Shown here piece after piece: positions 4,351-42,626 of a DNA stretch of 44,829 bases (position 1 is its first letter; every line of letters starts with the position of its first letter). A program made the position numbers and the translations under genes. The notes below the pieces were generated by a model. It was given only the letters and a program-made list of their open reading frames with translations. It made no database searches and was not told where the DNA came from. Source of the stretch: Escherichia phage VB_EcoS-Golestan; the sequence record NC_042084.1, one strand, 5' to 3'.

Positions 4351-4418
4351 ATGAACATCGCGGTGATAACCGCAGCCGATACCCACAAAACAACATAAAA
4401 CATCACACTATTTGTCAT
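4347..4418 (-). CDS. 23-aa hydrophobic micro-protein
   Basis: MTNSVMFYVVLWVSAAVITAMFI. Its ATG overlaps the lipoprotein TGA (ATGA). It is below the ORF-track size cutoff. Confidence 0.3.
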   Translation of the reverse strand: MTNSVMFYVVLWVSAAVITAMFI

Positions 4419-4759
4419 TTGCATTTCTCGTCGTATGTTTGTTGTAACTGCGACAGACGATTACCGGCTGTCATCTCGTCCATAGAAGGCCCAGCGCCTG
4501 TGTCCATAAAGAACAGCGGAACAATCAGGAATGCGCCTGTAACACCGAGTACAACGTTAGTACCTATTTGCTTATTAACACGGTGCGTAGCGTTGGCTTG
4601 AGCTTGTTTTGTCGTGGCGATTCTCGATAGTAACTGATTACATGTTGCCGTTGTATCCCCCGCCTGATAAACCTGTAAAGCTGGGTCTGGCAACGACCTT
4701 ACGCAACCACTCAAACAAACGGCTACAACACCCGCTACTGCTAATTTAATATATTTCAT
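4415..4759 (-). CDS. lipoprotein with internal hydrophobic helix (possible superinfection exclusion)
   Basis: Signal peptide plus lipobox (MKYIKLAVAGVVAVCLSGC). A second hydrophobic segment is VVLGVTGAFLIVPLFFM. It lies on the opposite strand inside the head module. Confidence 0.7.
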   Translation of the reverse strand: MKYIKLAVAGVVAVCLSGCVRSLPDPALQVYQAGDTTATCNQLLSRIATTKQAQANATHRVNKQIGTNVVLGVTGAFLIVPLFFMDTGAGPSMDEMTAGNRLSQLQQTYDEKCK

Positions 4760-4857
4760 AGTTCACCATTACCCGTGTCAATTTCACCAATACCACTACA
4801 AGCCCAAAGAAACATCACCGCATCAACTGCAATTACTACTGAAATAACGACTAACAT
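4756..4857 (-). CDS. 33-aa membrane micro-protein
   Basis: MLVVISVVIAVDAVMFLWACSGIGEIDTGNGEL. SD GAGGAGG lies 5 nt upstream. Its TGA overlaps the lipoprotein ATG (ATGA). Confidence 0.4.
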   Translation of the reverse strand: MLVVISVVIAVDAVMFLWACSGIGEIDTGNGEL

Positions 4858-4884
4858 GACGGCCTCCTCGTTTCGATGTAATGA

Positions 4885-4913
4885 ATAGTACCCTATTATA
4901 TTGGTGTGTGCAA
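4885..4913 (-). promoter_or_regulatory. class I promoter TTGCAC-N17-TACTAT with conserved leader
   Basis: Exact hexamers and 17-nt spacer. The leader reads TCATTACATCGAAACGAG then SD. It drives the lipoprotein cassette. Confidence 0.6.
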
Positions 4914-4979
4914 ACTATTTATTTACGTATTCCAGTTATTCCACTCAATTGTAAATGTTGGAATAAACTATTCGAATAG

Positions 4980-5233: not shown

Positions 5234-5620
5234 ATGAATCTTAAAGCAACTGTCGTAGCAGGAGCATGTTTCATCATCCTGGCTTACGCCCACGGCATTT
5301 ACCAGTATCGCAGCGGCTGGAGCGAAGGCCGGGCGAATCTCGTTTCGCAGCAACAGCAGAAAGCGCAGGCTGAGTTAGCGAAGAAAACACAACGGCAGCA
5401 GCAGGACGAATCAAAGGCCGCCGCCGCCGACAACGAAGGCAAGACGAAATCAGAGGTGATTACCCGTGAAGTCGTTAAATACATTAAAACGCCAGGTCGC
5501 AGCGTGTGCACTTTTGACCCTGAGCGCGTGCAGCTCAAGTCCCGCGCCGTCGCCAACGCCAATTCCATCCCCGGATACGACGATGATGCAGCCGCCGTGC
5601 AAACTGGCGCAGCCAAGTAG
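5234..5620 (+). CDS. i-spanin (Rz-like)
   Basis: N-terminal TMD (ATVVAGACFIILAYAHGIY), then a Q/A/K-rich coiled region. It contains the +1-frame lipoprotein ORF expected of Rz/Rz1 pairs. Confidence 0.75.
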   Translation: MNLKATVVAGACFIILAYAHGIYQYRSGWSEGRANLVSQQQQKAQAELAKKTQRQQQDESKAAAADNEGKTKSEVITREVVKYIKTPGRSVCTFDPERVQLKSRAVANANSIPGYDDDAAAVQTGAAK

Positions 5621-5729
5621 CGACGCTGATGAGGATTTGGCCGTCGACGTTCAGAATGCTGAATGCGTACGGCAACTGAGACTGAAAGTGTTCATGTTGC
5701 AGGATTACGTGAGGAATATTCTGGAATAG
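5466..5729 (+). CDS. o-spanin (Rz1-like lipoprotein), overlapped architecture
   Basis: GTG start. Lipobox LTLSAC is followed by a Pro-rich segment (SSSPAPSPTPIPSP). It starts inside the i-spanin gene in another frame and extends past its stop. Confidence 0.7.
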   Translation: MKSLNTLKRQVAACALLTLSACSSSPAPSPTPIPSPDTTMMQPPCKLAQPSSDADEDLAVDVQNAECVRQLRLKVFMLQDYVRNILE

Positions 5730-5811
5730 TTGCCTTGCATGTTGGAATAATTTATTCTTGACATGTAAATCCGGGTGGCCCGGATTCCAACGTCCAGGGG
5801 ACATACTGACT

Positions 5812-6513
5812 ATGAATCGTTTTTTACGTTATCCGTTCCAGGAAGAAGCTGGAGCAGAAGATAAAGCTGGTGGCGGTGACGCTCCTAAAATGTTCACCGC
5901 TGAAGAAGTTCAGGCGCTGATTGAGAAAGAAGTTGCCGGGCTTAAGGCCAATCAGGAAGCATTGCTGGCGGAGAAGAAAGAAGCCGCCCGTAAAGCAAAA
6001 GAGGCCGAAGAAGAACGGCAGCGTGCGCACCAGGAGGCGTTAAAGGCCGCCGGTAAGATGGACGAGTTTGAAAAGACGATTCGTAGCCAGTATGACCCGG
6101 TGTTAGCCGAGAAAGATGGCCGCATCTCCAAAATGGCAGAGCGCATCCTCGGCAGCGAACGTAAAGCGGTGCTAGGCTCTTTCGCGGGTGACTTTATTAC
6201 CCCGGAAGCAGTGGACATCCTTGCGCCGTTCGTTAAGACTGAGTTCGAAGGTGATGATGTGGTTACTAAGTTTGTCGGCGCAGACGGTAACGTAATCACG
6301 ACTGACCCGGAACAGTTCCGCAAATACCTGCGTGAACACAAAGCGTTTTCGCATTTGATTAAAGCAAATGCAGCTTCCGGCGGCGGGGCTTCCGGTGGCA
6401 AAGGCGGCGGGGCCGCACCAGCGTTTAAAGACATGAGTGAAGCAGAGCGTTTAGCCCTGTATAAATCGAACCCTGCCGAATTTGAACGGCAACTTAAAGC
6501 CCTGAGGAAATAA
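5812..6513 (+). CDS. scaffolding protein
   Basis: Highly charged, alpha-helical E/K/A-rich protein immediately upstream of the major capsid gene. The ATG at 5812 is preferred over the track start 5758. Confidence 0.65.
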   Translation: MNRFLRYPFQEEAGAEDKAGGGDAPKMFTAEEVQALIEKEVAGLKANQEALLAEKKEAARKAKEAEEERQRAHQEALKAAGKMDEFEKTIRSQYDPVLAEKDGRISKMAERILGSERKAVLGSFAGDFITPEAVDILAPFVKTEFEGDDVVTKFVGADGNVITTDPEQFRKYLREHKAFSHLIKANAASGGGASGGKGGGAAPAFKDMSEAERLALYKSNPAEFERQLKALRK

Positions 6514-10481: not shown

Positions 10482-11650
10482 ATATGGCTACAACTCCTTT
10501 TAAGGGCGCGAATACCGCGCAATTCTATGTGGCGGAAACTACCCCGGGCGTAACACCGGCTAACCCGGTATGGTCGCCACTGCGTAACACAGGCGGCGTT
10601 CCTGCCATTACCCGTGACACGCTGACCTCCAACGAACTGGACGGCAGCCGCGAAACTACATCCATCCGCACCGGTAACAAGCAGGTTAGCGGTGAATATG
10701 CTATTGAGCTTAGCTCGAAAAGCCAGGATGACTGGCTAGCCGGGGCTTTAGGCTCTACGTGGCAGGCTGGCGTATCTCTGTCAGGGCTATCGATTACCGT
10801 CGCACCGGCTGGCAAGACGTTCACACGTGCCACCGGCAGCTTTATCACTGACAGAGTTGGGGTAGGCGACCTGATTGCGTTTACCGATTTAACTGGCGAT
10901 AATGCAAAACCATTTATTGTTACTGCAGTAACGGCTACGGTTGTTACTGGTGCAGGCATCCAACACACCCTGACCACCGAGACAAAAACTAGTAAGGCTA
11001 AAACTGGCGACACGCTGGAAACCGGTAATACGTGTAAGACGTTCTCTATCCTTACCTGGTACAAAGGCCAGTGCGGCGGTACTGACGCGTACACGTTAAC
11101 CAAAGGCGTGGAAGTTTCTGGTTTTACCATCGAACAGGCTGTTAACGCGATGGTAACTGGCAGCTTCCCATTCATCGGTCGCAGTCAGGAGATTCTCACC
11201 ACGCCGCCGACCGGTTCCAACTTCTCATCTGTTACTTTTGGTGATGAGCCGTTTTCTTCGGTTGACGTTTCCGTGTTCGATGGTTCTACGCCGTTGCGAT
11301 GCGACAGTCTGACTATCACCAACGATAACAGCGCGTCCGCGCAGTTCGAACTTGGTAACACTAACGTAGCGTTTGTTGAGCGTAGCCGCGCGGCTAACAC
11401 TTTCTCCATCTCCGGCAAGCTGTACGACATGGCGATGATTCAGAAGTTTATCAACGAACAGCAGGTAGAGATTAACTCTATTCTGGCGGGGGTAAACGGG
11501 GCTATGTCTTTCAGTTTGAAACGCGCAGAGCTTACAGCAGTAACACCAGAGATTGGCGGACCCGAGTCAATCACTCAGTCCATTGAGGGGCAGGCCACCG
11601 GCAACCAGTACCAGTCGTCTATCGTAATTCAACGTATCACCTACGCATAA
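10478..11650 (+). CDS. major tail protein
   Basis: 390-aa T/G/S-rich ORF after the terminator-protein gene, followed by a strong bidirectional terminator. Confidence 0.65.
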   Translation: MNMATTPFKGANTAQFYVAETTPGVTPANPVWSPLRNTGGVPAITRDTLTSNELDGSRETTSIRTGNKQVSGEYAIELSSKSQDDWLAGALGSTWQAGVSLSGLSITVAPAGKTFTRATGSFITDRVGVGDLIAFTDLTGDNAKPFIVTAVTATVVTGAGIQHTLTTETKTSKAKTGDTLETGNTCKTFSILTWYKGQCGGTDAYTLTKGVEVSGFTIEQAVNAMVTGSFPFIGRSQEILTTPPTGSNFSSVTFGDEPFSSVDVSVFDGSTPLRCDSLTITNDNSASAQFELGNTNVAFVERSRAANTFSISGKLYDMAMIQKFINEQQVEINSILAGVNGAMSFSLKRAELTAVTPEIGGPESITQSIEGQATGNQYQSSIVIQRITYA

Positions 11651-11654
11651 AACT

Positions 11655-11680
11655 AAGGCCCCTTTCGGGGCCTTTTTCTT
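11655..11680. terminator. bidirectional terminator AAGGCCCC-TTTC-GGGGCCTT
   Basis: Flanked by A and T tracts and lies between convergent genes. Confidence 0.75.
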
Positions 11681-12233
11681 ACAAACCTAATTTTAAAGCA
11701 ATGTCTATAACGTTCGATTTAACGTCACCCGGTATGATGTAGGTGTCGTAATCTTTTACACCACTAACATCATACAGATAGCCACGGCTATCGCCGATGA
11801 ACGTATAGCCGTCACGATGGAGGCGAACGATTTGCACGTCATGCCCTGCGGCGACGATAGGGGTAACTTCGCTGGCGAACCCACCATCGGACACCACAAA
11901 AACTTCGCCGCCGTCGGGCAAGTTCCCGGAAAGATACTTACCGAAATAATCATCGCCGAATACCGGTTTAACGAATTGCTCAGAAATGGCAATCATGAAC
12001 TGGCGACGAGATAACCCATTAAGGAAATCTTCTGGCTTTTCTTTCCGCGCCCGGTCGTCGTAGCCGTCGAGAAAGTCGTGGTAAGCATCCTGGCCTAACG
12101 CTGCCAAAGCAATATTGAACATCGGATTCTTGAAACGGGTAGTTCCTTTCGCAAAGCCCATCTCTACCAGCGCCCTAGCAAGTGTGTCTTTCCCACAACC
12201 AGCAGGGCCATTAAGAATAATTACCTTAGCCAT
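11679..12233 (-). CDS. P-loop kinase (T4 gp1 dNMP-kinase-like)
   Basis: The Walker A LNGPAGCGKDT and overall layout resemble T4 gp1 as remembered. It is the last gene of the leftward cassette. Confidence 0.55.
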   Translation of the reverse strand: MAKVIILNGPAGCGKDTLARALVEMGFAKGTTRFKNPMFNIALAALGQDAYHDFLDGYDDRARKEKPEDFLNGLSRRQFMIAISEQFVKPVFGDDYFGKYLSGNLPDGGEVFVVSDGGFASEVTPIVAAGHDVQIVRLHRDGYTFIGDSRGYLYDVSGVKDYDTYIIPGDVKSNVIDIALKLGL

Positions 12234-12721
12234 TACTTATCACTCCCGTGTGATTTTAAGTGTGTAGAGTCCCCGTTACAGTCGTACTCAGTGACCGCGT
12301 GTGTCGTGATTCCTAAGCCACGGAAATGCTTAATCACCGCGGGAGAGTCGTCGAATGCGCACAAGATTCTTTCCAGTCCGAAAGCACGCAACACCTCTTC
12401 TTTAATTACGATGTCTTTTCTGTTGTCGTGTTTGCTGCGCATGATTAGCGTGTCAAACCTAACGTTATTCTCTCGTAACCATTCGCGAGTCTCCTCCTCA
12501 GCGTCATCACTTCGCCCGGTAAGGATAATTATAGTAAGTCCGGAATGCCACAGTACGCTACACAAATGGATATTGTCGTATATCGGAGCGTCATCTTTGC
12601 AGGCCATGTTAAATGGCTTCCACGCCCACGTTTCTCCGTAGTTATCTTTTGGTAACAGGTGTAAGCGATGGGTACCGTCGGCCAATGTCCCGTCTAAATC
12701 GAAAATTACAATATCTTTCAT
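12233..12721 (-). CDS. HAD-family phosphatase (T4 Pnk 3'-phosphatase-domain-like)
   Basis: Motif I is IFDLDGTLAD. Later motifs are LTGRS, RKD and FDDS. It aligns by eye with the T4 Pnk C-terminal domain. Confidence 0.65.
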   Translation of the reverse strand: MKDIVIFDLDGTLADGTHRLHLLPKDNYGETWAWKPFNMACKDDAPIYDNIHLCSVLWHSGLTIIILTGRSDDAEEETREWLRENNVRFDTLIMRSKHDNRKDIVIKEEVLRAFGLERILCAFDDSPAVIKHFRGLGITTHAVTEYDCNGDSTHLKSHGSDK

Positions 12722-13848
12722 CCCAGCATCTCCGGTGAAATAGTTAAACGTGCGACCTCGCCATATTCGGCGCTATAAGTAATTACATTTGCACTGCGGC
12801 CCGACATCCATCCGCCGCGAGAGGCGTAGGCGTCTTTAGCCGCTAAGGTGCGGTGTTGCTCAACAATCATGTTACGGCTTTCTACAATCTTCTGGTGGTG
12901 CAGATGGCCTACGTGGGCGTAGCTGTAAACACTCTCGCCGAACGCTTTACGGAACTTGGCAATCATAACCGGTTCGATAGCGTCGAATCGTGCTTTATGC
13001 CCGTGATGGAAGAACAGCGTCGTTTTGCCGTGTTGCACCATCTTATAAACATCCGGCGACGTATCGACGAATACACGAGGCTCGTTGTCGTACAGTGTGC
13101 TGAACATCTCCGCCAGCCAAATCATCCCGGATTCGTCGTGGTTCCCCTGAACTATAAGCAAGCGAACAGTTTTATGCTTAACCAGAGCCATATCAACAAC
13201 ACGGCGGACCATGCGAATCATGTAGCGGACAAGTTTCTGGTAACGCGTGTCGGCGTCAAGGACATGACCACTCGCCGGTGTAACGGCGTCAAGACTATCG
13301 AAGTGAGCTAAGTCGCCAAGAAGATTAATAACCCCCGTACCTGCATCCGGTGCTTTCTGAAACGCAGCATCAAACCAACGAGAGAATAAGTCCTCCGCGA
13401 TTTTCATATCCCAGTCGTCGCCGCTCTCGTCAGCCCAGGCTAACATACCGAGATGGAAATCAGACACGGTGTACAGGTTAAGCAGCTTGTCGTCACGTTT
13501 AGCCCGGGCGGCCTTAACTGGCGGAACGGGAGTAATCTCCGACTTCATGCCTTCGACTACGGCTTTCATCAACTCAACCTGACGTTCGGCATCGGTGTCT
13601 GTCTTAACCCACTGCAACTTAGTGTTACCGAACTCGTCCACCAGAGACGACGTGCCTTTAATCTTGTAGCCGTCTGGTACAAGGTGGCTTACGTCCCGCC
13701 CGTGGCCTACGCCTTTCTTAGCCAGCTTCGCTTTACGGATTCGGATAACGCGGTCTGAGATTCCGTATTTACGGGCGATATCGATATTCTTCATCCCGGC
13801 GTTCAATTCTTCCTGTAATTGCTCGTCGGTTATTTTCTTCTGGGCCAT
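12718..13848 (-). CDS. HTH-domain / calcineurin-like metallophosphoesterase fusion
   Basis: An N-terminal HTH-like segment (NIDIARKYGISDRVIRIRK) is followed by phosphoesterase motifs SDFHLG, GDLAHFD, GNHDE, HHGH and GHLHH. SD GAGGAAG lies before ATG 13848. Confidence 0.65.
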   Translation of the reverse strand: MAQKKITDEQLQEELNAGMKNIDIARKYGISDRVIRIRKAKLAKKGVGHGRDVSHLVPDGYKIKGTSSLVDEFGNTKLQWVKTDTDAERQVELMKAVVEGMKSEITPVPPVKAARAKRDDKLLNLYTVSDFHLGMLAWADESGDDWDMKIAEDLFSRWFDAAFQKAPDAGTGVINLLGDLAHFDSLDAVTPASGHVLDADTRYQKLVRYMIRMVRRVVDMALVKHKTVRLLIVQGNHDESGMIWLAEMFSTLYDNEPRVFVDTSPDVYKMVQHGKTTLFFHHGHKARFDAIEPVMIAKFRKAFGESVYSYAHVGHLHHQKIVESRNMIVEQHRTLAAKDAYASRGGWMSGRSANVITYSAEYGEVARLTISPEMLG

Positions 13849-13886
13849 GCTTACTTCCTCGTGTTTAGGATTTGTCTTATAGTAGC

Positions 13887-14078
13887 CTACTTCTCTTTCA
13901 CGTTCGAGTTGCAAGCCCAGATTAAAATGAATACCCACGGCAACAGAATCCACCCGAGAAATAAGTTAGCCATGAATATCGCCAGCTTTGCTTTATGGTT
14001 ACGCATATGGGCCACCAAAAACGGGATAAAATAAACGGCTACAAAAATAATTAAGAAGAACATAGTGATACCGGTCAT
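13887..14078 (-). CDS. superinfection-immunity (Imm-like) membrane protein
   Basis: YFIPFLVAHMRNHKAKLAIFMANLFLGWILLPW matches the Imm-family pattern. AGGAG lies 7 nt before ATG 14078, which is preferred over the track start 14105. Confidence 0.6.
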   Translation of the reverse strand: MTGITMFFLIIFVAVYFIPFLVAHMRNHKAKLAIFMANLFLGWILLPWVFILIWACNSNVKEK

Positions 14079-14120
14079 AACATAACTCCTGATTTGAGAT
14101 AACATCGTCGGTGTAAGTGA

Positions 14121-14149
14121 ATAGTACGCTATTATATTGGGGTGTGCAA
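14121..14149 (-). promoter_or_regulatory. class I promoter TTGCAC-N17-TACTAT
   Basis: Same hexamers and spacing as 4885-4913. It drives the Imm-like / phosphoesterase / phosphatase / kinase cassette. Confidence 0.6.
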
Positions 14150-14164
14150 GTAGTGTGCTAGAAT
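14137..14164 (+). promoter_or_regulatory. candidate promoter TTGGGG-N16-TGcTAGAAT (tail operon restart)
   Basis: Extended -10, divergent from 14121-14149. Confidence 0.35.
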
Positions 14165-14256
14165 AATTTTGCGCCTAGTGTCGCACACGAAAAGCGGGTG
14201 GTTCCCGTCTGGCGCATTTCCTTTAACCAGTAACCTCTTAACCAAAGGATTAAAGA

Positions 14257-14673
14257 ATGAAACTTTCTGATTTTTATTACGAAGCGGAAGCCGAAAAGGG
14301 CGCACGTATGCCGATACCGCTAAAAGACGGTACTGATTCCGGGGAATGGCTTAATGTTGTTTCTCCTGAGGCGGACGTTGCCGTTAAGGCTATGCGCGCG
14401 TTCACCCTTGCATACCGGGCAGTATTAGGGAAATTAAAACCGCTTCGTGATAAGTGCGAAGAGATGAAAGATTTCTCTGAATACAACCTGAAGATGGAAG
14501 ACGCGGCGACGGACCTTAACCGTCAGTTAGCGATTGAATTGGTTAACGGGTGGAGCCTTGACGACGAATTCAATAAAGAGAATCTGAACACACTCCTGAC
14601 GCAATATAAACGACTCGCGGAACTTGTTGTTGTGTTTCATAACGAACAACTGCACCAGCTACAGGAAAAGTAG
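14257..14673 (+). CDS. tail assembly chaperone (G-like)
   Basis: 138-aa ORF immediately upstream of the tape measure gene. It ends at a slippery GGAAAAG followed by TAG. Confidence 0.7.
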   Translation: MKLSDFYYEAEAEKGARMPIPLKDGTDSGEWLNVVSPEADVAVKAMRAFTLAYRAVLGKLKPLRDKCEEMKDFSEYNLKMEDAATDLNRQLAIELVNGWSLDDEFNKENLNTLLTQYKRLAELVVVFHNEQLHQLQEK

Positions 14674-37860: not shown

Positions 37861-37910
37861 CTCGCCATCCCATTAAACGAAAGAATCACAACGGCAACGT
37901 AACTATTCTC

Positions 37911-37939
37911 TTGCACACCCCAACATAATAGGATACTAT
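37911..37939 (+). promoter_or_regulatory. class I promoter TTGCAC-N17-TACTAT
   Basis: Exact hexamers. The leader reads TCACTTATCGAAACGAG then AGGAG. Confidence 0.6.
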
Positions 37940-37973
37940 TCACTTATCGAAACGAGACAGAGGAGTGAGGGTT

Positions 37974-39035: not shown

Positions 39036-39112
39036 TGTTCTATTTCACCAAACGCAACAATCGAAGCGACTATTGCAGGAGATGCAACAATACAGGCACC
39101 AATAAAATTTAC

Positions 39113-39141
39113 TTGCACACTAAGATAGAATAGGCTACTAT
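39113..39141 (+). promoter_or_regulatory. class I promoter TTGCAC-N17-TACTAT
   Basis: Exact hexamers. The leader reads TCATTTACACCAACGAG. Confidence 0.6.
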
Positions 39142-39172
39142 TCATTTACACCAACGAGTGGAGAGATGGAAG

Positions 39173-41999: not shown

Positions 42000-42028
42000 T
42001 TGACACCTAAGACTAATCCGACGATACT
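42000..42028 (+). promoter_or_regulatory. promoter TTGACA-N17-GATACT (orphan, drives a small RNA)
   Basis: Consensus -35 with 17-nt spacer. It lies between two terminators with no ORF downstream. Confidence 0.5.
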
Positions 42029-42034
42029 TAAATC

Positions 42035-42099
42035 ACCTCCTGTTCCATCCCTCTGCTCTCCAGTTTTATCCCGGCCCTGACCCAGCCGGGATTTTTTTT
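42035..42099 (+). ncRNA. putative ~65-nt CU-rich small RNA with anti-SD sequence
   Basis: Orphan promoter plus GC hairpin and T8 terminator, with no start codon inside. The 5' region is ATCACCTCCT. Confidence 0.45.
42070..42099 (+). terminator. strong terminator CCCGGC-loop-GCCGGG + T8
   Basis: Read directly. It ends the putative small RNA. Confidence 0.75.
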
Positions 42100-42121
42100 A
42101 TCTATTTTCGGTAATGACTAG

Positions 42122-42150
42122 TTGACTATTACCCTCGACCCTATTATATT
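42122..42150 (+). promoter_or_regulatory. promoter TTGACT-N17-TATATT
   Basis: Followed by the leader TACTCCATCGACAACGAG, related to the class I leaders. Confidence 0.55.
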
Positions 42151-42183
42151 TACTCCATCGACAACGAGAACGGAGTAGAGAAG

Positions 42184-42432
42184 ATGAGTAACGTACTGAC
42201 AATCGCAATAACCGAGGAACTTGAAGCCAAATGTATCGCATGGACTATGGGTAATGACCCGGTTGCTATGCGTAAATTTCCAATGAAAATCACAGACATC
42301 GAAGCATTCAAAGATGCACAACTGATGGCACGCATCGCCGTTAGTAACCTGAGCAATAGCATCCCTGCGGACGCGTTCTGGTTCGCTGCAATGCAGACAC
42401 TTAAAGCAGCATATGCAGGAGAGAAGAAATGA
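42184..42432 (+). CDS. hypothetical protein (82 aa)
   Basis: First gene after the promoter at 42122, with SD GGAG upstream. Confidence 0.55.
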   Translation: MSNVLTIAITEELEAKCIAWTMGNDPVAMRKFPMKITDIEAFKDAQLMARIAVSNLSNSIPADAFWFAAMQTLKAAYAGEKK

Positions 42433-42626
42433 AAGTTAAAGCAGCTAAAATTCTCTGGTTACCCGCCCTTGACTATGTGACAGAGGGTAAAGTGTATGAC
42501 GTATACAACCCGAAAACTACTGGTTTTGGTTATATAGTTGCCGATGACGGCTGTGATATTTACATAGACTTTGGTAGCGATGAAGGTGATGGTTTCCACG
42601 GCGTTAAATGGGAGATTGTCGAATGA
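42429..42626 (+). CDS. hypothetical protein (65 aa)
   Basis: ATGA-coupled ORF. Confidence 0.5.
   Translation: MKVKAAKILWLPALDYVTEGKVYDVYNPKTTGFGYIVADDGCDIYIDFGSDEGDGFHGVKWEIVE

What the first reader, a model, noticed from the sequence alone, without database searches (positions are those of the whole stretch)
11679..14149. Opposite-strand cassette splitting the tail module: Imm-like protein, HTH-phosphoesterase, Pnk-type phosphatase and P-loop kinase
Four leftward genes, with their own class I promoter and a bidirectional terminator, are inserted between the major tail gene and its chaperones. The genes are translationally coupled.

The combination is a kinase with a GKD P-loop, a HAD phosphatase resembling the T4 Pnk 3'-phosphatase domain, and a calcineurin-type phosphoesterase fused to an HTH. 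This has the enzymatic repertoire of a nucleic-acid end-healing pathway (2',3'-cyclic phosphate or 3'-phosphate removal plus 5' phosphorylation), but no ligase is present. Alternatively it could be a nucleotide or signal-degrading countermeasure.

Co-transcription with a superinfection-immunity-type membrane protein suggests a host-interaction or defence-related unit rather than morphogenesis.
Basis: partly seen in the sequence, partly recalled or inferred. Interest (0 to 1): 0.5.

Follow-up and report, generated by a model that had tools for sequence, protein, structure and literature searches.

The report
Leftward accessory operon in Kagunavirus tail module
A four-gene backward-facing operon really does sit inside the tail genes of this E. 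coli phage, but it is an already annotated, widely shared set (an immunity-type membrane protein, a DNA-binding Mre11-like phosphoesterase, a T4-Pnk-type 3'-phosphatase and a T4-gp1-type nucleotide kinase) that looks like DNA and nucleotide metabolism rather than an RNA end-repair or defence system.

Summary
The window is essentially Escherichia phage vB_EcoS_SCS44 (Kagunavirus). A leftward unit runs from a promoter-like element (14150-14114) through four genes to a bidirectional hairpin terminator (11674-11655), between the tail-tube gene and the tail chaperones.

- **Coupling.** Only the three enzyme genes overlap (ATGA, TAATG). The Imm gene is 38 nt from the next gene.
- **HAD protein.** It is a true T4-Pnk-type 3'-phosphatase, with all eight residues I recall as essential in T4 Pnk conserved.
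- **Ligase.** None is encoded.
- **Synteny.** The same MPE-HAD-kinase order occurs in Webervirus and in podovirus PP99, next to DNA-metabolism genes. T1 has all three genes. Most relatives keep the phosphoesterase but lack HAD and kinase.

A 2026 paper already noted the trio and proposed nucleotide supply. I favour a DNA-processing and dNMP-salvage role; this is inferred, not shown. The end-healing and defence readings are not supported.

Side finding: a covarying int-alpA RNA motif (14168-14232, + strand) lies upstream of the chaperone gene.

The parts
14114..14150 (-). Promoter-like element of the cassette: -35 TTGCAC (14149-14144), 17-nt spacer, -10 TACTAT (14126-14121). It is one of four copies of a 37-nt element in the window.
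   Evidence: Read. Four copies against 0 expected by chance. The hexamers are conserved in Kagunavirus and in Jerseyvirus SETP13. Activity is not shown.
13887..14078 (-). Imm-like small membrane protein, 63 aa, with two hydrophobic segments.
   Evidence: PF14373 Imm_superinfect 1.8e-13, 50.6 bits against a cutoff of 27.9. phrog_1039 'immunity to superinfection' 1.8e-23. AGGAG lies 7 nt upstream of the ATG.
12718..13848 (-). HTH-metallophosphoesterase, 376 aa. N-terminal three-helix HTH (about aa 5-45), a beta-hairpin plus helix (about aa 60-105), and an MPE core (about aa 119-376).
12233..12721 (-). Stand-alone HAD 3'-phosphatase of the T4 Pnk type, 162 aa. Its start overlaps the MPE stop codon (ATGA).
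   Evidence: PF25109 HAD_PNKP 4.5e-20, 72.7 bits against a cutoff of 27.6. PDB matches: Pnkp1 4xrp 5.7e-6, T4 Pnk 5uj0 and 1ltq. T4 Pnk residues D165, D167, R176, R213, D254, K258, D277 and D278 all fall in invariant columns.
11679..12233 (-). P-loop (GCGKDT) nucleotide kinase of the T4 gp1 dNMP-kinase type, 184 aa. Its start overlaps the HAD stop codon (TAATG).
11655..11674 (.). Bidirectional intrinsic-terminator hairpin (AAGGCCCC-loop-GGGGCCTT) between the tail-tube stop codon (11650) and the kinase stop codon (11679).
   Evidence: Scored on both strands. The T-run is good on the + strand (TTTTCTT) and weaker on the - strand (AGTTTTAT).
14168..14232 (+). int-alpA RNA motif (Rfam RF02996) in the divergent intergenic region, upstream of the first chaperone gene. 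It bounds the cassette but is not part of its transcript.
   Evidence: 36.6 bits against a gathering score of 35.8; it is the only Rfam match in the window. In 7 distinct Guernseyvirinae versions, 96.7% of cells are paired and 3 pairs show compensatory changes; slid controls give 34-56%.
14137..14164 (+). Candidate divergent promoter for the chaperone and tape-measure genes: TTGGGG, 16 nt, extended -10 TGcTAGAAT.
   Evidence: Read. The TGn-TAGAAT/TATTCT element is conserved in the alignment. The consensus scanner did not call it. This is inference only.

Best explanation
**Shown**
- This is a self-contained leftward transcription unit (promoter, four genes, bidirectional terminator). It is conserved at this position in Guernseyvirinae.
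- It combines modules with different evolutionary spread.
  - (a) A lineage-specific Imm-type two-helix membrane protein.
  - (b) An HTH-fused Mre11/SbcD-like metallophosphoesterase with an intact two-metal active site. It is found in thousands of phage genomes. A published pangenome survey reports it as persistent in Drexlerviridae.
  - (c) A tightly linked pair that travels together and is often placed just after (b): a T4-Pnk-type HAD 3'-phosphatase and a T4-gp1-type dNMP kinase.

**Inferred mechanism**
- The enzymes serve phage DNA replication and are not part of morphogenesis.
- The HTH tethers the phosphoesterase to DNA. There it acts as a Rad50-independent nuclease or end-processing enzyme that releases 5'-dNMPs, from host or damaged DNA.
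- The HAD enzyme removes 3'-phosphates from DNA ends or 3'-nucleotides, which would otherwise block exonucleases and polymerase.
- The kinase converts 5'-dNMPs to dNDPs, which re-enter the dNTP pool through host NDP kinase.
- The kinase is the only nucleotide-metabolism enzyme I found in this genome.
- The Imm-like protein is a separate passenger that probably blocks superinfection.
- The shared promoter class suggests expression together with the small rightward genes at 38-40 kb. I take these to be early genes from their position at the divergence point from the replication genes, not from expression data.
For: **Identity and anatomy:**

**HAD:** Pfam HAD_PNKP above threshold. All eight T4 Pnk residues that I recall as essential are invariant.

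**Kinase**
- PHROG 139 matches at 1.5e-43.
- hhalign extends into the nucleotide-binding region, including the shared LNGKSP / LgGxSPR motif.
- Eight Arg/Lys residues outside the P-loop are invariant (K35, R61, K64, R77, K89, R137, R140, R150), as expected for a nucleotide-monophosphate kinase. No invariant Asp lies between the P-loop and residue 116.
- In Chaseviridae the kinase sits between a DNA ligase and a dUTPase.

**MPE**
- All five motifs are invariant.
- Motif II GDxxH and motif III GNHD follow the Mre11 pattern.
- The HTH is retained across the family.

**Synteny**
- Same order MPE-HAD-kinase in Webervirus, after the Dam methylase and small ORFs (helicase further upstream).
- Same order in podovirus PP99, between endonuclease VII and DNA ligase, at 52%, 55% and 42% identity.
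- T1 has gp16, gp64 and gp62.
- Ahp1 has a divergent MPE followed by HAD and kinase.
- In at least 8 lambdoid-like metagenomic phages the MPE gene is immediately upstream of the Q antiterminator. In L019 NinB and a RecA-dependent nuclease lie upstream; in L018 only the latter.

**Literature:** PMC13164509 reports the 'DNA repair exonuclease' as persistent (508 of 522 Drexlerviridae). It notes PNK plus dNMP kinase as the commonest genes right after it, and proposes nucleotide supply.

**Genome content:** no ligase, Rad50/SbcC, ribonucleotide reductase or other nucleotide enzyme is annotated or found by PHROG among the ORFs tested.
Against: - No biochemical or genetic data exist for any of the three enzymes in this lineage.
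- Profile searches against PDB sequences gave only E 0.17-0.35 for SbcD and the Pseudomonas MPE nuclease.
- A role for a 3'-phosphatase in salvage is weakly motivated, because the known nucleases would produce 5'-dNMPs with 3'-OH ends.
- Most Guernseyvirinae lack HAD and kinase. The three enzymes therefore cannot form an obligatory pathway.
- Expression timing is unknown. The only transcriptome (K1B4, PMC12645636) places the Imm gene in a 'late' class together with replication genes, on an odd 120-min time scale.
Confidence: 0.5

Rival explanations
1. Split Pnk-style end-healing. The HAD enzyme removes 3'-phosphates or 2',3'-cyclic phosphates and the kinase phosphorylates 5'-OH ends of broken RNA or DNA. 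The MPE helps with cyclic phosphates, as in Clostridium thermocellum Pnkp. A host ligase, or an adjacent phage ligase in other phages, seals the break.
For: - The HAD protein is a true member of the Pnk phosphatase family, with a complete catalytic set.
- HAD and a P-loop kinase are adjacent and translationally coupled in several phage families, echoing the two Pnk activities.
- In PP99 and in two IMG/VR phages a DNA ligase gene directly follows the kinase.
Against: - The alignment to T4 Pnk covers only the P-loop.
- No invariant Asp is available in the stretch where, as I recall, T4 Pnk carries its general base D35.
- This genome has no RNA or DNA ligase.
- From my own knowledge, E. coli RtcB needs unhealed ends, so RNA healing without a phage ligase would be counter-productive.
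- In Chaseviridae the kinase occurs next to dUTPase without a HAD gene.
Confidence: 0.12
2. Anti-defence unit. The phosphoesterase degrades immune signalling nucleotides, and the kinase/phosphatase pair counters nucleotide-depletion or nucleotide-modifying defences. It is co-expressed with a superinfection-exclusion protein as a host-interaction island.
For: - It is an opposite-strand island in a structural module, with its own promoter of the same class as the small rightward genes that I presume are early.
- It is co-transcribed with an Imm-type gene.
- HAD and kinase are variable accessory genes.
Against: - PADLOC gives no significant match: nothing for three of the proteins, and only weak P-loop-type matches (E 0.02-0.05) for the kinase. 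PADLOC does not model anti-defence proteins, so this is a weak test.
- The HTH domain is retained across the family, which argues for a DNA substrate or target.
- In Drexlerviridae, Autographiviridae and lambdoid-like phages the same genes lie in replication or recombination regions without an Imm gene.
- A gene reported as persistent in 508 of 522 Drexlerviridae is atypical for an anti-defence gene.
Confidence: 0.1
3. No common pathway. The cassette is a mosaic of independently acquired accessory genes (Imm; MPE; the HAD-kinase pair) that share only a promoter and a permissive insertion site between the tail tube and chaperone genes.
For: - The three modules have different distributions. The Imm-like gene was found in 12 of the 80 IMG/VR loci, all of them Guernseyvirinae-type.
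- MPE occurs in 2038 phage records, often alone.
- HAD-kinase is replaced by small ORFs in SETP13 and in many Kagunavirus contigs.
- In T1 the MPE lies about 35 kb from HAD and kinase.
Against: - The identical order MPE-HAD-kinase, with overlapping stop and start codons, recurs in three unrelated phage families at only 40-55% identity. Chance is unlikely to maintain this.
- A divergent MPE also precedes HAD and kinase in Ahp1.
Confidence: 0.2
4. The HTH-phosphoesterase is mainly a DNA-binding regulator, for example of late or lysis gene expression. The catalytic domain would serve a signalling or sensing role, and HAD and kinase would be unrelated neighbours.
For: - The HTH resembles sigma-70 region 4, LuxR/GerE and Fis-type domains (GerE 0.078).
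- The gene lies immediately upstream of the lysis cassette in Drexlerviridae.
- It lies upstream of Q or the holin in metagenomic phages.
Against: - The metal-binding and catalytic residues are invariant across thousands of homologues, so catalysis is under selection.
- Where Q is present it is a separate gene.
- In Kagunavirus the gene is far from the lysis genes at 40.9-41.9 kb.
Confidence: 0.08

Closest known systems
T4 polynucleotide kinase/phosphatase (PseT), C-terminal HAD 3'-phosphatase domain (PDB 1LTQ, 5UJ0) and Capnocytophaga Pnkp1 (4XRP)
   Same: Same Pfam family (HAD_PNKP). It has the DxDxT nucleophile motif, and every residue I recall as essential in T4 Pnk (D165, D167, R176, R213, D254, K258, D277, D278) is conserved.
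   Different: It is a stand-alone 162-aa protein with no fused Pnk-type kinase domain. It carries an extra segment (LHLLPxKD..W..FN) and a conserved C-terminal LKSHGxDK tail. The phage has no partner RNA ligase.
T4 gp1 deoxynucleoside monophosphate kinase (PDB 1DEK)
   Different: Only 18-19% identity. It is 184 aa against 241 aa, so about 60 residues of T4 gp1 are missing. Its substrate range is untested.
Mre11/SbcD nuclease domain (T. maritima Mre11 3QG5, S. aureus SbcD 7DOG, E. coli SbcD 6S6V)
   Different: The modelled MPE core runs to the C-terminus, so there is no room for a capping domain. No Rad50/SbcC ATPase partner is encoded. Instead it has an N-terminal HTH plus a beta-hairpin module. 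Sequence-level similarity is marginal (E 0.17).
Phage T1 gp16 / gp64 / gp62, Webervirus 'DNA repair exonuclease - PNK - dNMP kinase', and Pectobacterium phage PP99 orf28-30
   Same: Orthologous proteins at 41-55% identity. The gene order and the tight linkage of HAD and kinase are the same. The trio is described in PMC13164509.
   Different: In those phages the genes lie in early or DNA-metabolism regions, next to the lysis cassette or a DNA ligase. They have no Imm gene and are not inside the tail module. In T1 an HNH gene separates HAD from the kinase.
Clostridium thermocellum Pnkp (P-loop kinase + metallophosphoesterase + ligase-like domain)
   Same: It combines a P-loop kinase with a calcineurin-type phosphoesterase that acts on nucleic-acid ends.
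   Different: Here the proteins are separate. The kinase is of the dNMP-kinase type, the MPE is closest to Mre11 rather than to the lambda-phosphatase type, there is no adenylyltransferase or ligase component, and an extra HAD phosphatase is present.
T4 Imm (superinfection immunity protein)
   Same: Pfam Imm_superinfect above threshold. A small protein with two hydrophobic helices.
   Different: 63 aa against 83 aa as I recall for T4 Imm. Function is untested in this lineage. The one transcriptome paper merely repeats the annotation.

Membership tests
HAD_PNKP (T4 Pnk-type 3'-phosphatase) | Match to the family profile above the curated threshold | tested here: met
   PF25109: 72.7 bits against a cutoff of 27.6, E 4.5e-20, covering 140 of 143 profile positions.
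HAD_PNKP (T4 Pnk-type 3'-phosphatase) | DxDxT nucleophile motif and the essential residues of T4 Pnk (D165, D167, R176, R213, D254, K258, D277, D278; the essential-residue list is from my own knowledge) | tested here: met
   All eight align to invariant columns D8, D10, R19, R70, D103, K107, D124 and D125. T4 numbering was verified.
HAD_PNKP (T4 Pnk-type 3'-phosphatase) | 3'-phosphatase activity on DNA/RNA ends or 3'-dNMPs | not testable with these tools
   Needs an enzyme assay.
Bifunctional polynucleotide kinase-phosphatase / RNA repair system (T4 Pnk + Rnl) | A Pnk-type 5'-OH polynucleotide kinase domain | tested here: not met
Bifunctional polynucleotide kinase-phosphatase / RNA repair system (T4 Pnk + Rnl) | A partner ligase encoded by the same genome | tested here: not met
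   No ligase appears in the annotation of the near-identical record or in PHROG scans of the unassigned ORFs tested.
T4 gp1-type dNMP kinase | P-loop kinase fold closest to gp1, with similarity beyond the P-loop | tested here: met
T4 gp1-type dNMP kinase | Phosphorylation of dNMPs | not testable with these tools
   Needs an enzyme assay. Sequence-only searches against PDB found only the P-loop.
Mre11/SbcD nuclease | Five metallophosphoesterase motifs with metal-binding Asp/His/Asn residues | tested here: met
   D130, H132, D179, N236, H237, H282, H315 and H317 are invariant (H315 in 90% or more of alignment A1, invariant in A4) across 63-68 diverse homologues.
Mre11/SbcD nuclease | A C-terminal capping domain and a Rad50/SbcC ATPase partner | tested here: not met
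   The modelled MPE core runs to residue 376, the C-terminus, leaving no room for a capping domain. No SMC-like gene is present in the window.
Mre11/SbcD nuclease | Closest fold among metallophosphoesterases | tested here: inconclusive
Imm_superinfect (T4 Imm-like) | Profile match above threshold and a small two-helix membrane topology | tested here: met
   PF14373: 50.6 bits against a cutoff of 27.9. Two hydrophobic stretches are visible in the 63-aa sequence. Exclusion activity was not tested.
Known anti-phage defence systems (PADLOC) | Match to any defence-system protein model | tested here: not met
   Three proteins give no match. The kinase gives only P-loop-type matches at E 0.02-0.05. 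Anti-defence families are not in this library.
int-alpA RNA (Rfam RF02996) - flanking element | Score at or above the Rfam gathering threshold, with base pairs supported by covariation | tested here: met
   36.6 bits against 35.8, full-length match. 96.7% of cells paired, 3 pairs with compensatory changes, slid controls 34-56%.

The most novel reading that the evidence does not exclude
The HTH-fused, Rad50-independent Mre11-like phosphoesterase may be an uncharacterised phage DNA-processing enzyme. The family has about 4,600 clusters at 50% identity. It is reported as persistent in T1-like phages and sits immediately upstream of the Q antiterminator gene in lambdoid-like phages (from memory, the position of lambda NinI). 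The HTH would target it to DNA. With the linked Pnk-type 3'-phosphatase and dNMP kinase it would form a three-step line from host or damaged DNA to dNDPs. Alternatively, it would form a DNA end-cleaning system that rescues phage DNA cut by host nucleases leaving 3'-phosphate ends.
Probability: 0.15. Interest if true: 0.6.

Novelty: already known. Interest (0 to 1): 0.3.

Why it matters
The cassette is ordinary in one sense. It is present and annotated in public Kagunavirus genomes: the K1ind records carry notes 'similar to Era103, T1, SETP3', and SCS44 annotates three of the four genes with specific product names and the kinase as a hypothetical protein. The three-enzyme set has also been described in T1-like phages.

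What remains open is function. None of the three enzymes has been studied in these phages, yet the HTH-phosphoesterase is one of the most widespread uncharacterised enzyme families in siphophages. For phage-therapy genomes, such as K1- and UTI-targeting Kagunavirus phages, it is useful to know that these genes are nucleotide and DNA-metabolism accessories and not toxins or lysogeny functions.

The analysis also corrects the common database label 'polynucleotide kinase'. The protein so labelled is a phosphatase only, and the neighbouring kinase is of the dNMP-kinase type.

Tried and rejected
- **Single-sequence PDB searches.** The phosphoesterase gave nothing. The kinase gave P-loop matches only.
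- **Profile-to-PDB searches.** The kinase profile again found only the P-loop. Structure prediction was needed.
- **First homologue search with the phosphoesterase.** It returned only 96-100% identical proteins, which are useless as an alignment. Searching with profiles of diverse members solved this.
- **PADLOC.** No significant match.
- **NCBIfam.** Nothing above threshold.
- **Consensus promoter scanner.** It missed the cassette promoter because the -35 matches only 3 of 6 positions. The repeat-family search found it.
- **Literature.** Searches for Jerseyvirus or Drexlerviridae with metallophosphoesterase, for T1 host DNA degradation, and for the gene trio found nothing. The int-alpA search found one unrelated paper.
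- **K1B4 transcriptome paper.** Too coarse to time the cassette.
- **RNA folding of the intergenic region.** Energy alone was not significant, z = -0.61. The Rfam model and covariation were what identified the RNA.
- **Ahp1 gp25.** BLAST shows no similarity to the phosphoesterase, although Pfam shows it is a divergent member of the same superfamily.


Full report
**Identity of the window**

The region 11500-14400 matches Escherichia phage vB_EcoS_SCS44 (ON001686.1) at 99.3% identity and at identical coordinates. That phage belongs to genus Kagunavirus, subfamily Guernseyvirinae, and its genome is 44,829 bp. In that record three of the four genes already carry specific product names: polynucleotide kinase, metallophosphoesterase and superinfection immunity protein. 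The kinase is listed as a hypothetical protein. The older K1ind records carry notes such as 'similar to Era103, T1, SETP3'.

**Anatomy**

On the minus strand the unit reads as follows.

- A promoter-like element: TTGCAC (14149-14144), 17 nt, TACTAT (14126-14121).
- The Imm-like gene, 14078..13887. AGGAG lies 7 nt upstream of the ATG.
- A 38-nt gap containing GAGGAAG.
- The HTH-phosphoesterase gene, 13848..12718.
- The HAD gene, 12721..12233, overlapping the previous stop codon by ATGA.
- The kinase gene, 12233..11679, overlapping by TAATG.
- An 8-bp GC-rich hairpin at 11674-11655. It scores as a terminator on both strands and lies 4 nt after the stop codon of the rightward tail-tube gene.

The flanking genes are a Phage_tube_2 protein and two tail assembly chaperones, followed by the tape-measure gene.

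The consensus scanner did not call the promoter, because the -35 matches only 3 of 6 positions. It does belong to a 37-nt element, CTTGCACAC-N6-ATAATAG-NN-TACTATTCAYTTA. That element occurs four times where none is expected by chance:

- 4878-4914 (-)
- 14114-14150 (-)
- 37910-37946 (+)
- 39112-39148 (+)

The last two head the rightward blocks of small genes, next to the divergence point from the replication genes. I presume these are early genes from their position, not from expression data. The first drives two small leftward ORFs inside the head module. The -35 and -10 hexamers are retained from Kagunavirus to Jerseyvirus SETP13.

**The HAD protein**

- It exceeds the Pfam HAD_PNKP threshold: 72.7 bits against 27.6.
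- Its nearest solved relatives are Pnkp1 and the T4 Pnk phosphatase domain.
- In an alignment with T1, PP99, Webervirus and Ahp1 homologues and with T4 Pnk, eight T4 residues fall in invariant columns: D165, D167, R176, R213, D254, K258, D277 and D278. I recall these as the residues essential for the T4 3'-phosphatase.
- It is a phosphatase only, so the database name 'polynucleotide kinase' is misleading.

**The kinase**

Sequence searches against solved structures see only the P-loop. With an alignment of 64 diverse homologues, AlphaFold2 gave a confident model (pLDDT 93.6).

- Foldseek against the whole PDB also ranks 1DEK first. T4 Pnk is not among the top 50 hits.
- The family profile aligns to T4 gp1 over 74 columns, including a shared LNGKSP-type motif. 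It aligns to T4 Pnk over only the 26 P-loop columns.
- PHROG 139 'dNMP kinase' matches at 1.5e-43.
- The invariant residues are dominated by Arg and Lys, as in nucleotide-monophosphate kinases. No invariant Asp lies between the P-loop and residue 116, the stretch where (as I recall) T4 Pnk has its general base D35.

I conclude that this is a nucleotide kinase of the gp1 type. Its substrate has not been tested.

**The HTH-phosphoesterase**

The family is very large. It is found in 2038 phage records and in 4637 clusters at 50% identity, nearly all about 380 aa long.

- Invariant residues are D130, H132, G178-D179, T190, N236-H237, H282, G314 and H317, with H182, D184 and H315 in at least 90% of sequences. 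They reproduce the five metallophosphoesterase motifs in the Mre11 style (GDxxH, GNHD).
- The model (pLDDT 79) shows an N-terminal three-helix bundle, a beta-hairpin plus a long helix, then the catalytic core running to the C-terminus.
- Across homologues the N-terminus hits many HTH families, including Sigma70_r4_2, GerE, Fis-type and LysR-type.
- The core leaves no room for a capping domain, and the genome has no Rad50/SbcC gene.

It works like an Mre11-type enzyme at the active-site level. It is not a canonical family member.

**Synteny**

| Phage or group | Arrangement |
|---|---|
| Webervirus (Drexlerviridae) | MPE-HAD-kinase in the same order, after the Dam methylase and small ORFs (helicase further upstream) and before the holin |
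| Pectobacterium phage PP99 (Autographiviridae) | Same order between endonuclease VII and DNA ligase; 52%, 55% and 42% identity |
| T1 | MPE (gp16) before the lysis region; HAD (gp64) and kinase (gp62) in the left arm, split by an HNH gene |
| Ahp1 | A divergent metallophosphoesterase precedes HAD and kinase |
| 4HA13 (Chaseviridae) | The kinase sits between a DNA ligase and a dUTPase |
| JK16, Dhillonvirus Lust | MPE alone |
| Jerseyvirus SETP13 | Imm and MPE at the same tail position, followed by two small ORFs instead of HAD and kinase |

Quantitatively, MPE homologues at >=80% identity occur in 290 phage records. The kinase reaches that level in 48 records and the HAD protein in 55. Only 52 of 325 records cover the whole cassette.

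I also surveyed 80 IMG/VR loci.

- HAD and kinase follow the MPE gene in Kagunavirus-type and PP99-type contigs. In the PP99-type contigs a ligase follows them.
- In eight diverse lambdoid-like contigs the gene immediately after MPE is a Q antiterminator (PF06530, 2.7e-10).
- In two further contigs (L018/L019) a RecA-dependent nuclease lies upstream of the MPE gene, and in L019 also NinB.
- From memory, lambda carries NinI in that position.
- HNH homing endonuclease genes recur beside the MPE gene.

[quoted passage not shown] It names PNK and dNMP kinase as the commonest genes right after the exonuclease, and hypothesises that they enhance nucleotide supply (PMC13164509).

**Interpretation**

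The evidence favours a DNA and nucleotide-metabolism role for the three enzymes. The Imm-like gene looks like a lineage-specific passenger.

My working model has three steps.

1. The HTH-tethered phosphoesterase processes DNA.
2. The HAD enzyme clears 3'-phosphates.
3. The kinase returns dNMPs to the pool.

The kinase is the only nucleotide-metabolism enzyme I found in this genome. Every mechanistic step in this model is inferred. I give the model about 0.5.

The end-healing reading fails two defining tests: there is no Pnk-type kinase and no ligase. The defence reading has no positive evidence. PADLOC gives no significant match, the HTH is retained across the family, and a published survey reports the gene as persistent in T1-like phages. 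A pure mosaic reading is weakened because the same coupled gene order recurs across three phage families. It remains partly true, however, since HAD and kinase are dispensable in most relatives.

**Side finding: an RNA motif at the cassette boundary**

The intergenic region between the cassette promoter and the first chaperone gene contains the window's only Rfam match. It is the int-alpA RNA motif at 14168-14232 on the + strand, scoring 36.6 bits against a gathering score of 35.8.

- In seven distinct Guernseyvirinae versions, 96.7% of cells are paired and three pairs carry compensatory changes. Slid controls give 34-56%.
- The motif starts a few bases after a conserved + strand extended -10 (TGcTAGAAT, 14156-14164). 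It may therefore be the 5' end of the transcript that restarts tail-gene expression after the cassette.
- A model built from these sequences also finds two copies in an unrelated metagenomic phage. Each lies at the 5' end of an HNH gene beside the MPE homologue.

**Verdict**

The cassette is already in public annotations and in the literature, so novelty is low. The open and moderately interesting question is what the very widespread HTH-Mre11-like enzyme does.

Noticed in passing
window 14168-14232 (+): An Rfam int-alpA RNA motif (RF02996), the only Rfam match in the window at gathering threshold. It lies between the cassette promoter and the chaperone gene. Covariation supports its three helices in 7 distinct Guernseyvirinae versions.
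   Followed up: yes
window 14137-14164 (+): A candidate divergent promoter (TTGGGG, 16 nt, TGcTAGAAT) overlaps the cassette promoter back-to-back. Its predicted start coincides with the 5' end of the int-alpA motif. It would restart tail-gene transcription after the terminator at 11655-11674.
   Followed up: partly
window 4878-4914 (-), 37910-37946 (+), 39112-39148 (+): Three further copies of the 37-nt promoter element. Two head the small-gene blocks at 38-40 kb. One drives a second opposite-strand mini-cassette.
   Followed up: partly
window 4415-4857 (-): Two small leftward ORFs (114 aa in phrog_13472, function unknown, and 33 aa) lie inside the head module and are driven by the same promoter class. 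This parallels the studied cassette.
   Followed up: partly
L080 3645-3711 and 6243-6305 (+): In an unrelated metagenomic phage, two int-alpA-like RNA copies each lie at the 5' end of an HNH endonuclease gene, on either side of the MPE homologue. This suggests the motif is a leader element of mobile genes.
   Followed up: partly
L012 (T1) 5465-5959 and 42028-42510; IMG/VR loci L050, L080, L082, L085, L090: HNH homing-endonuclease genes recur next to the MPE gene. In T1 one splits the HAD and kinase genes.
   Followed up: partly
L051, L052, L054, L057, L060, L064, L068, L073: In lambdoid-like metagenomic phages the HTH-MPE gene is immediately upstream of a Q antiterminator gene. From memory, this is the position of lambda NinI, which is itself a metallophosphoesterase.
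   Followed up: partly
L018 and L019 7565-7927 (+): A 120-aa gene with a Pfam Acb2_Tad1_hairpin match (an anti-CBASS/Thoeris sponge-like fold) lies just after the lysozyme gene, four genes downstream of the MPE homologue.
   Followed up: no
window 11587-11632: Eight of the 21 differences from ON001686.1 within 11500-14400 cluster here. Most are spaced at multiples of 3 nt, at the 3' end of the tail-tube gene. This looks like a small recombination patch of third-codon-position changes.
   Followed up: no
window 12233-12262 (-), C-terminus of the HAD protein: A C-terminal tail LKSHG(S/V)DK is conserved in the Kagunavirus, T1 and Webervirus HAD proteins but is absent from T4 Pnk. It could be an interaction motif.
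   Followed up: no
window 5234-5729 (+): In the near-identical record, two 'putative spanin' genes are annotated inside the head module, about 35 kb from the holin and lysozyme genes at 40.9-41.9 kb.
   Followed up: no
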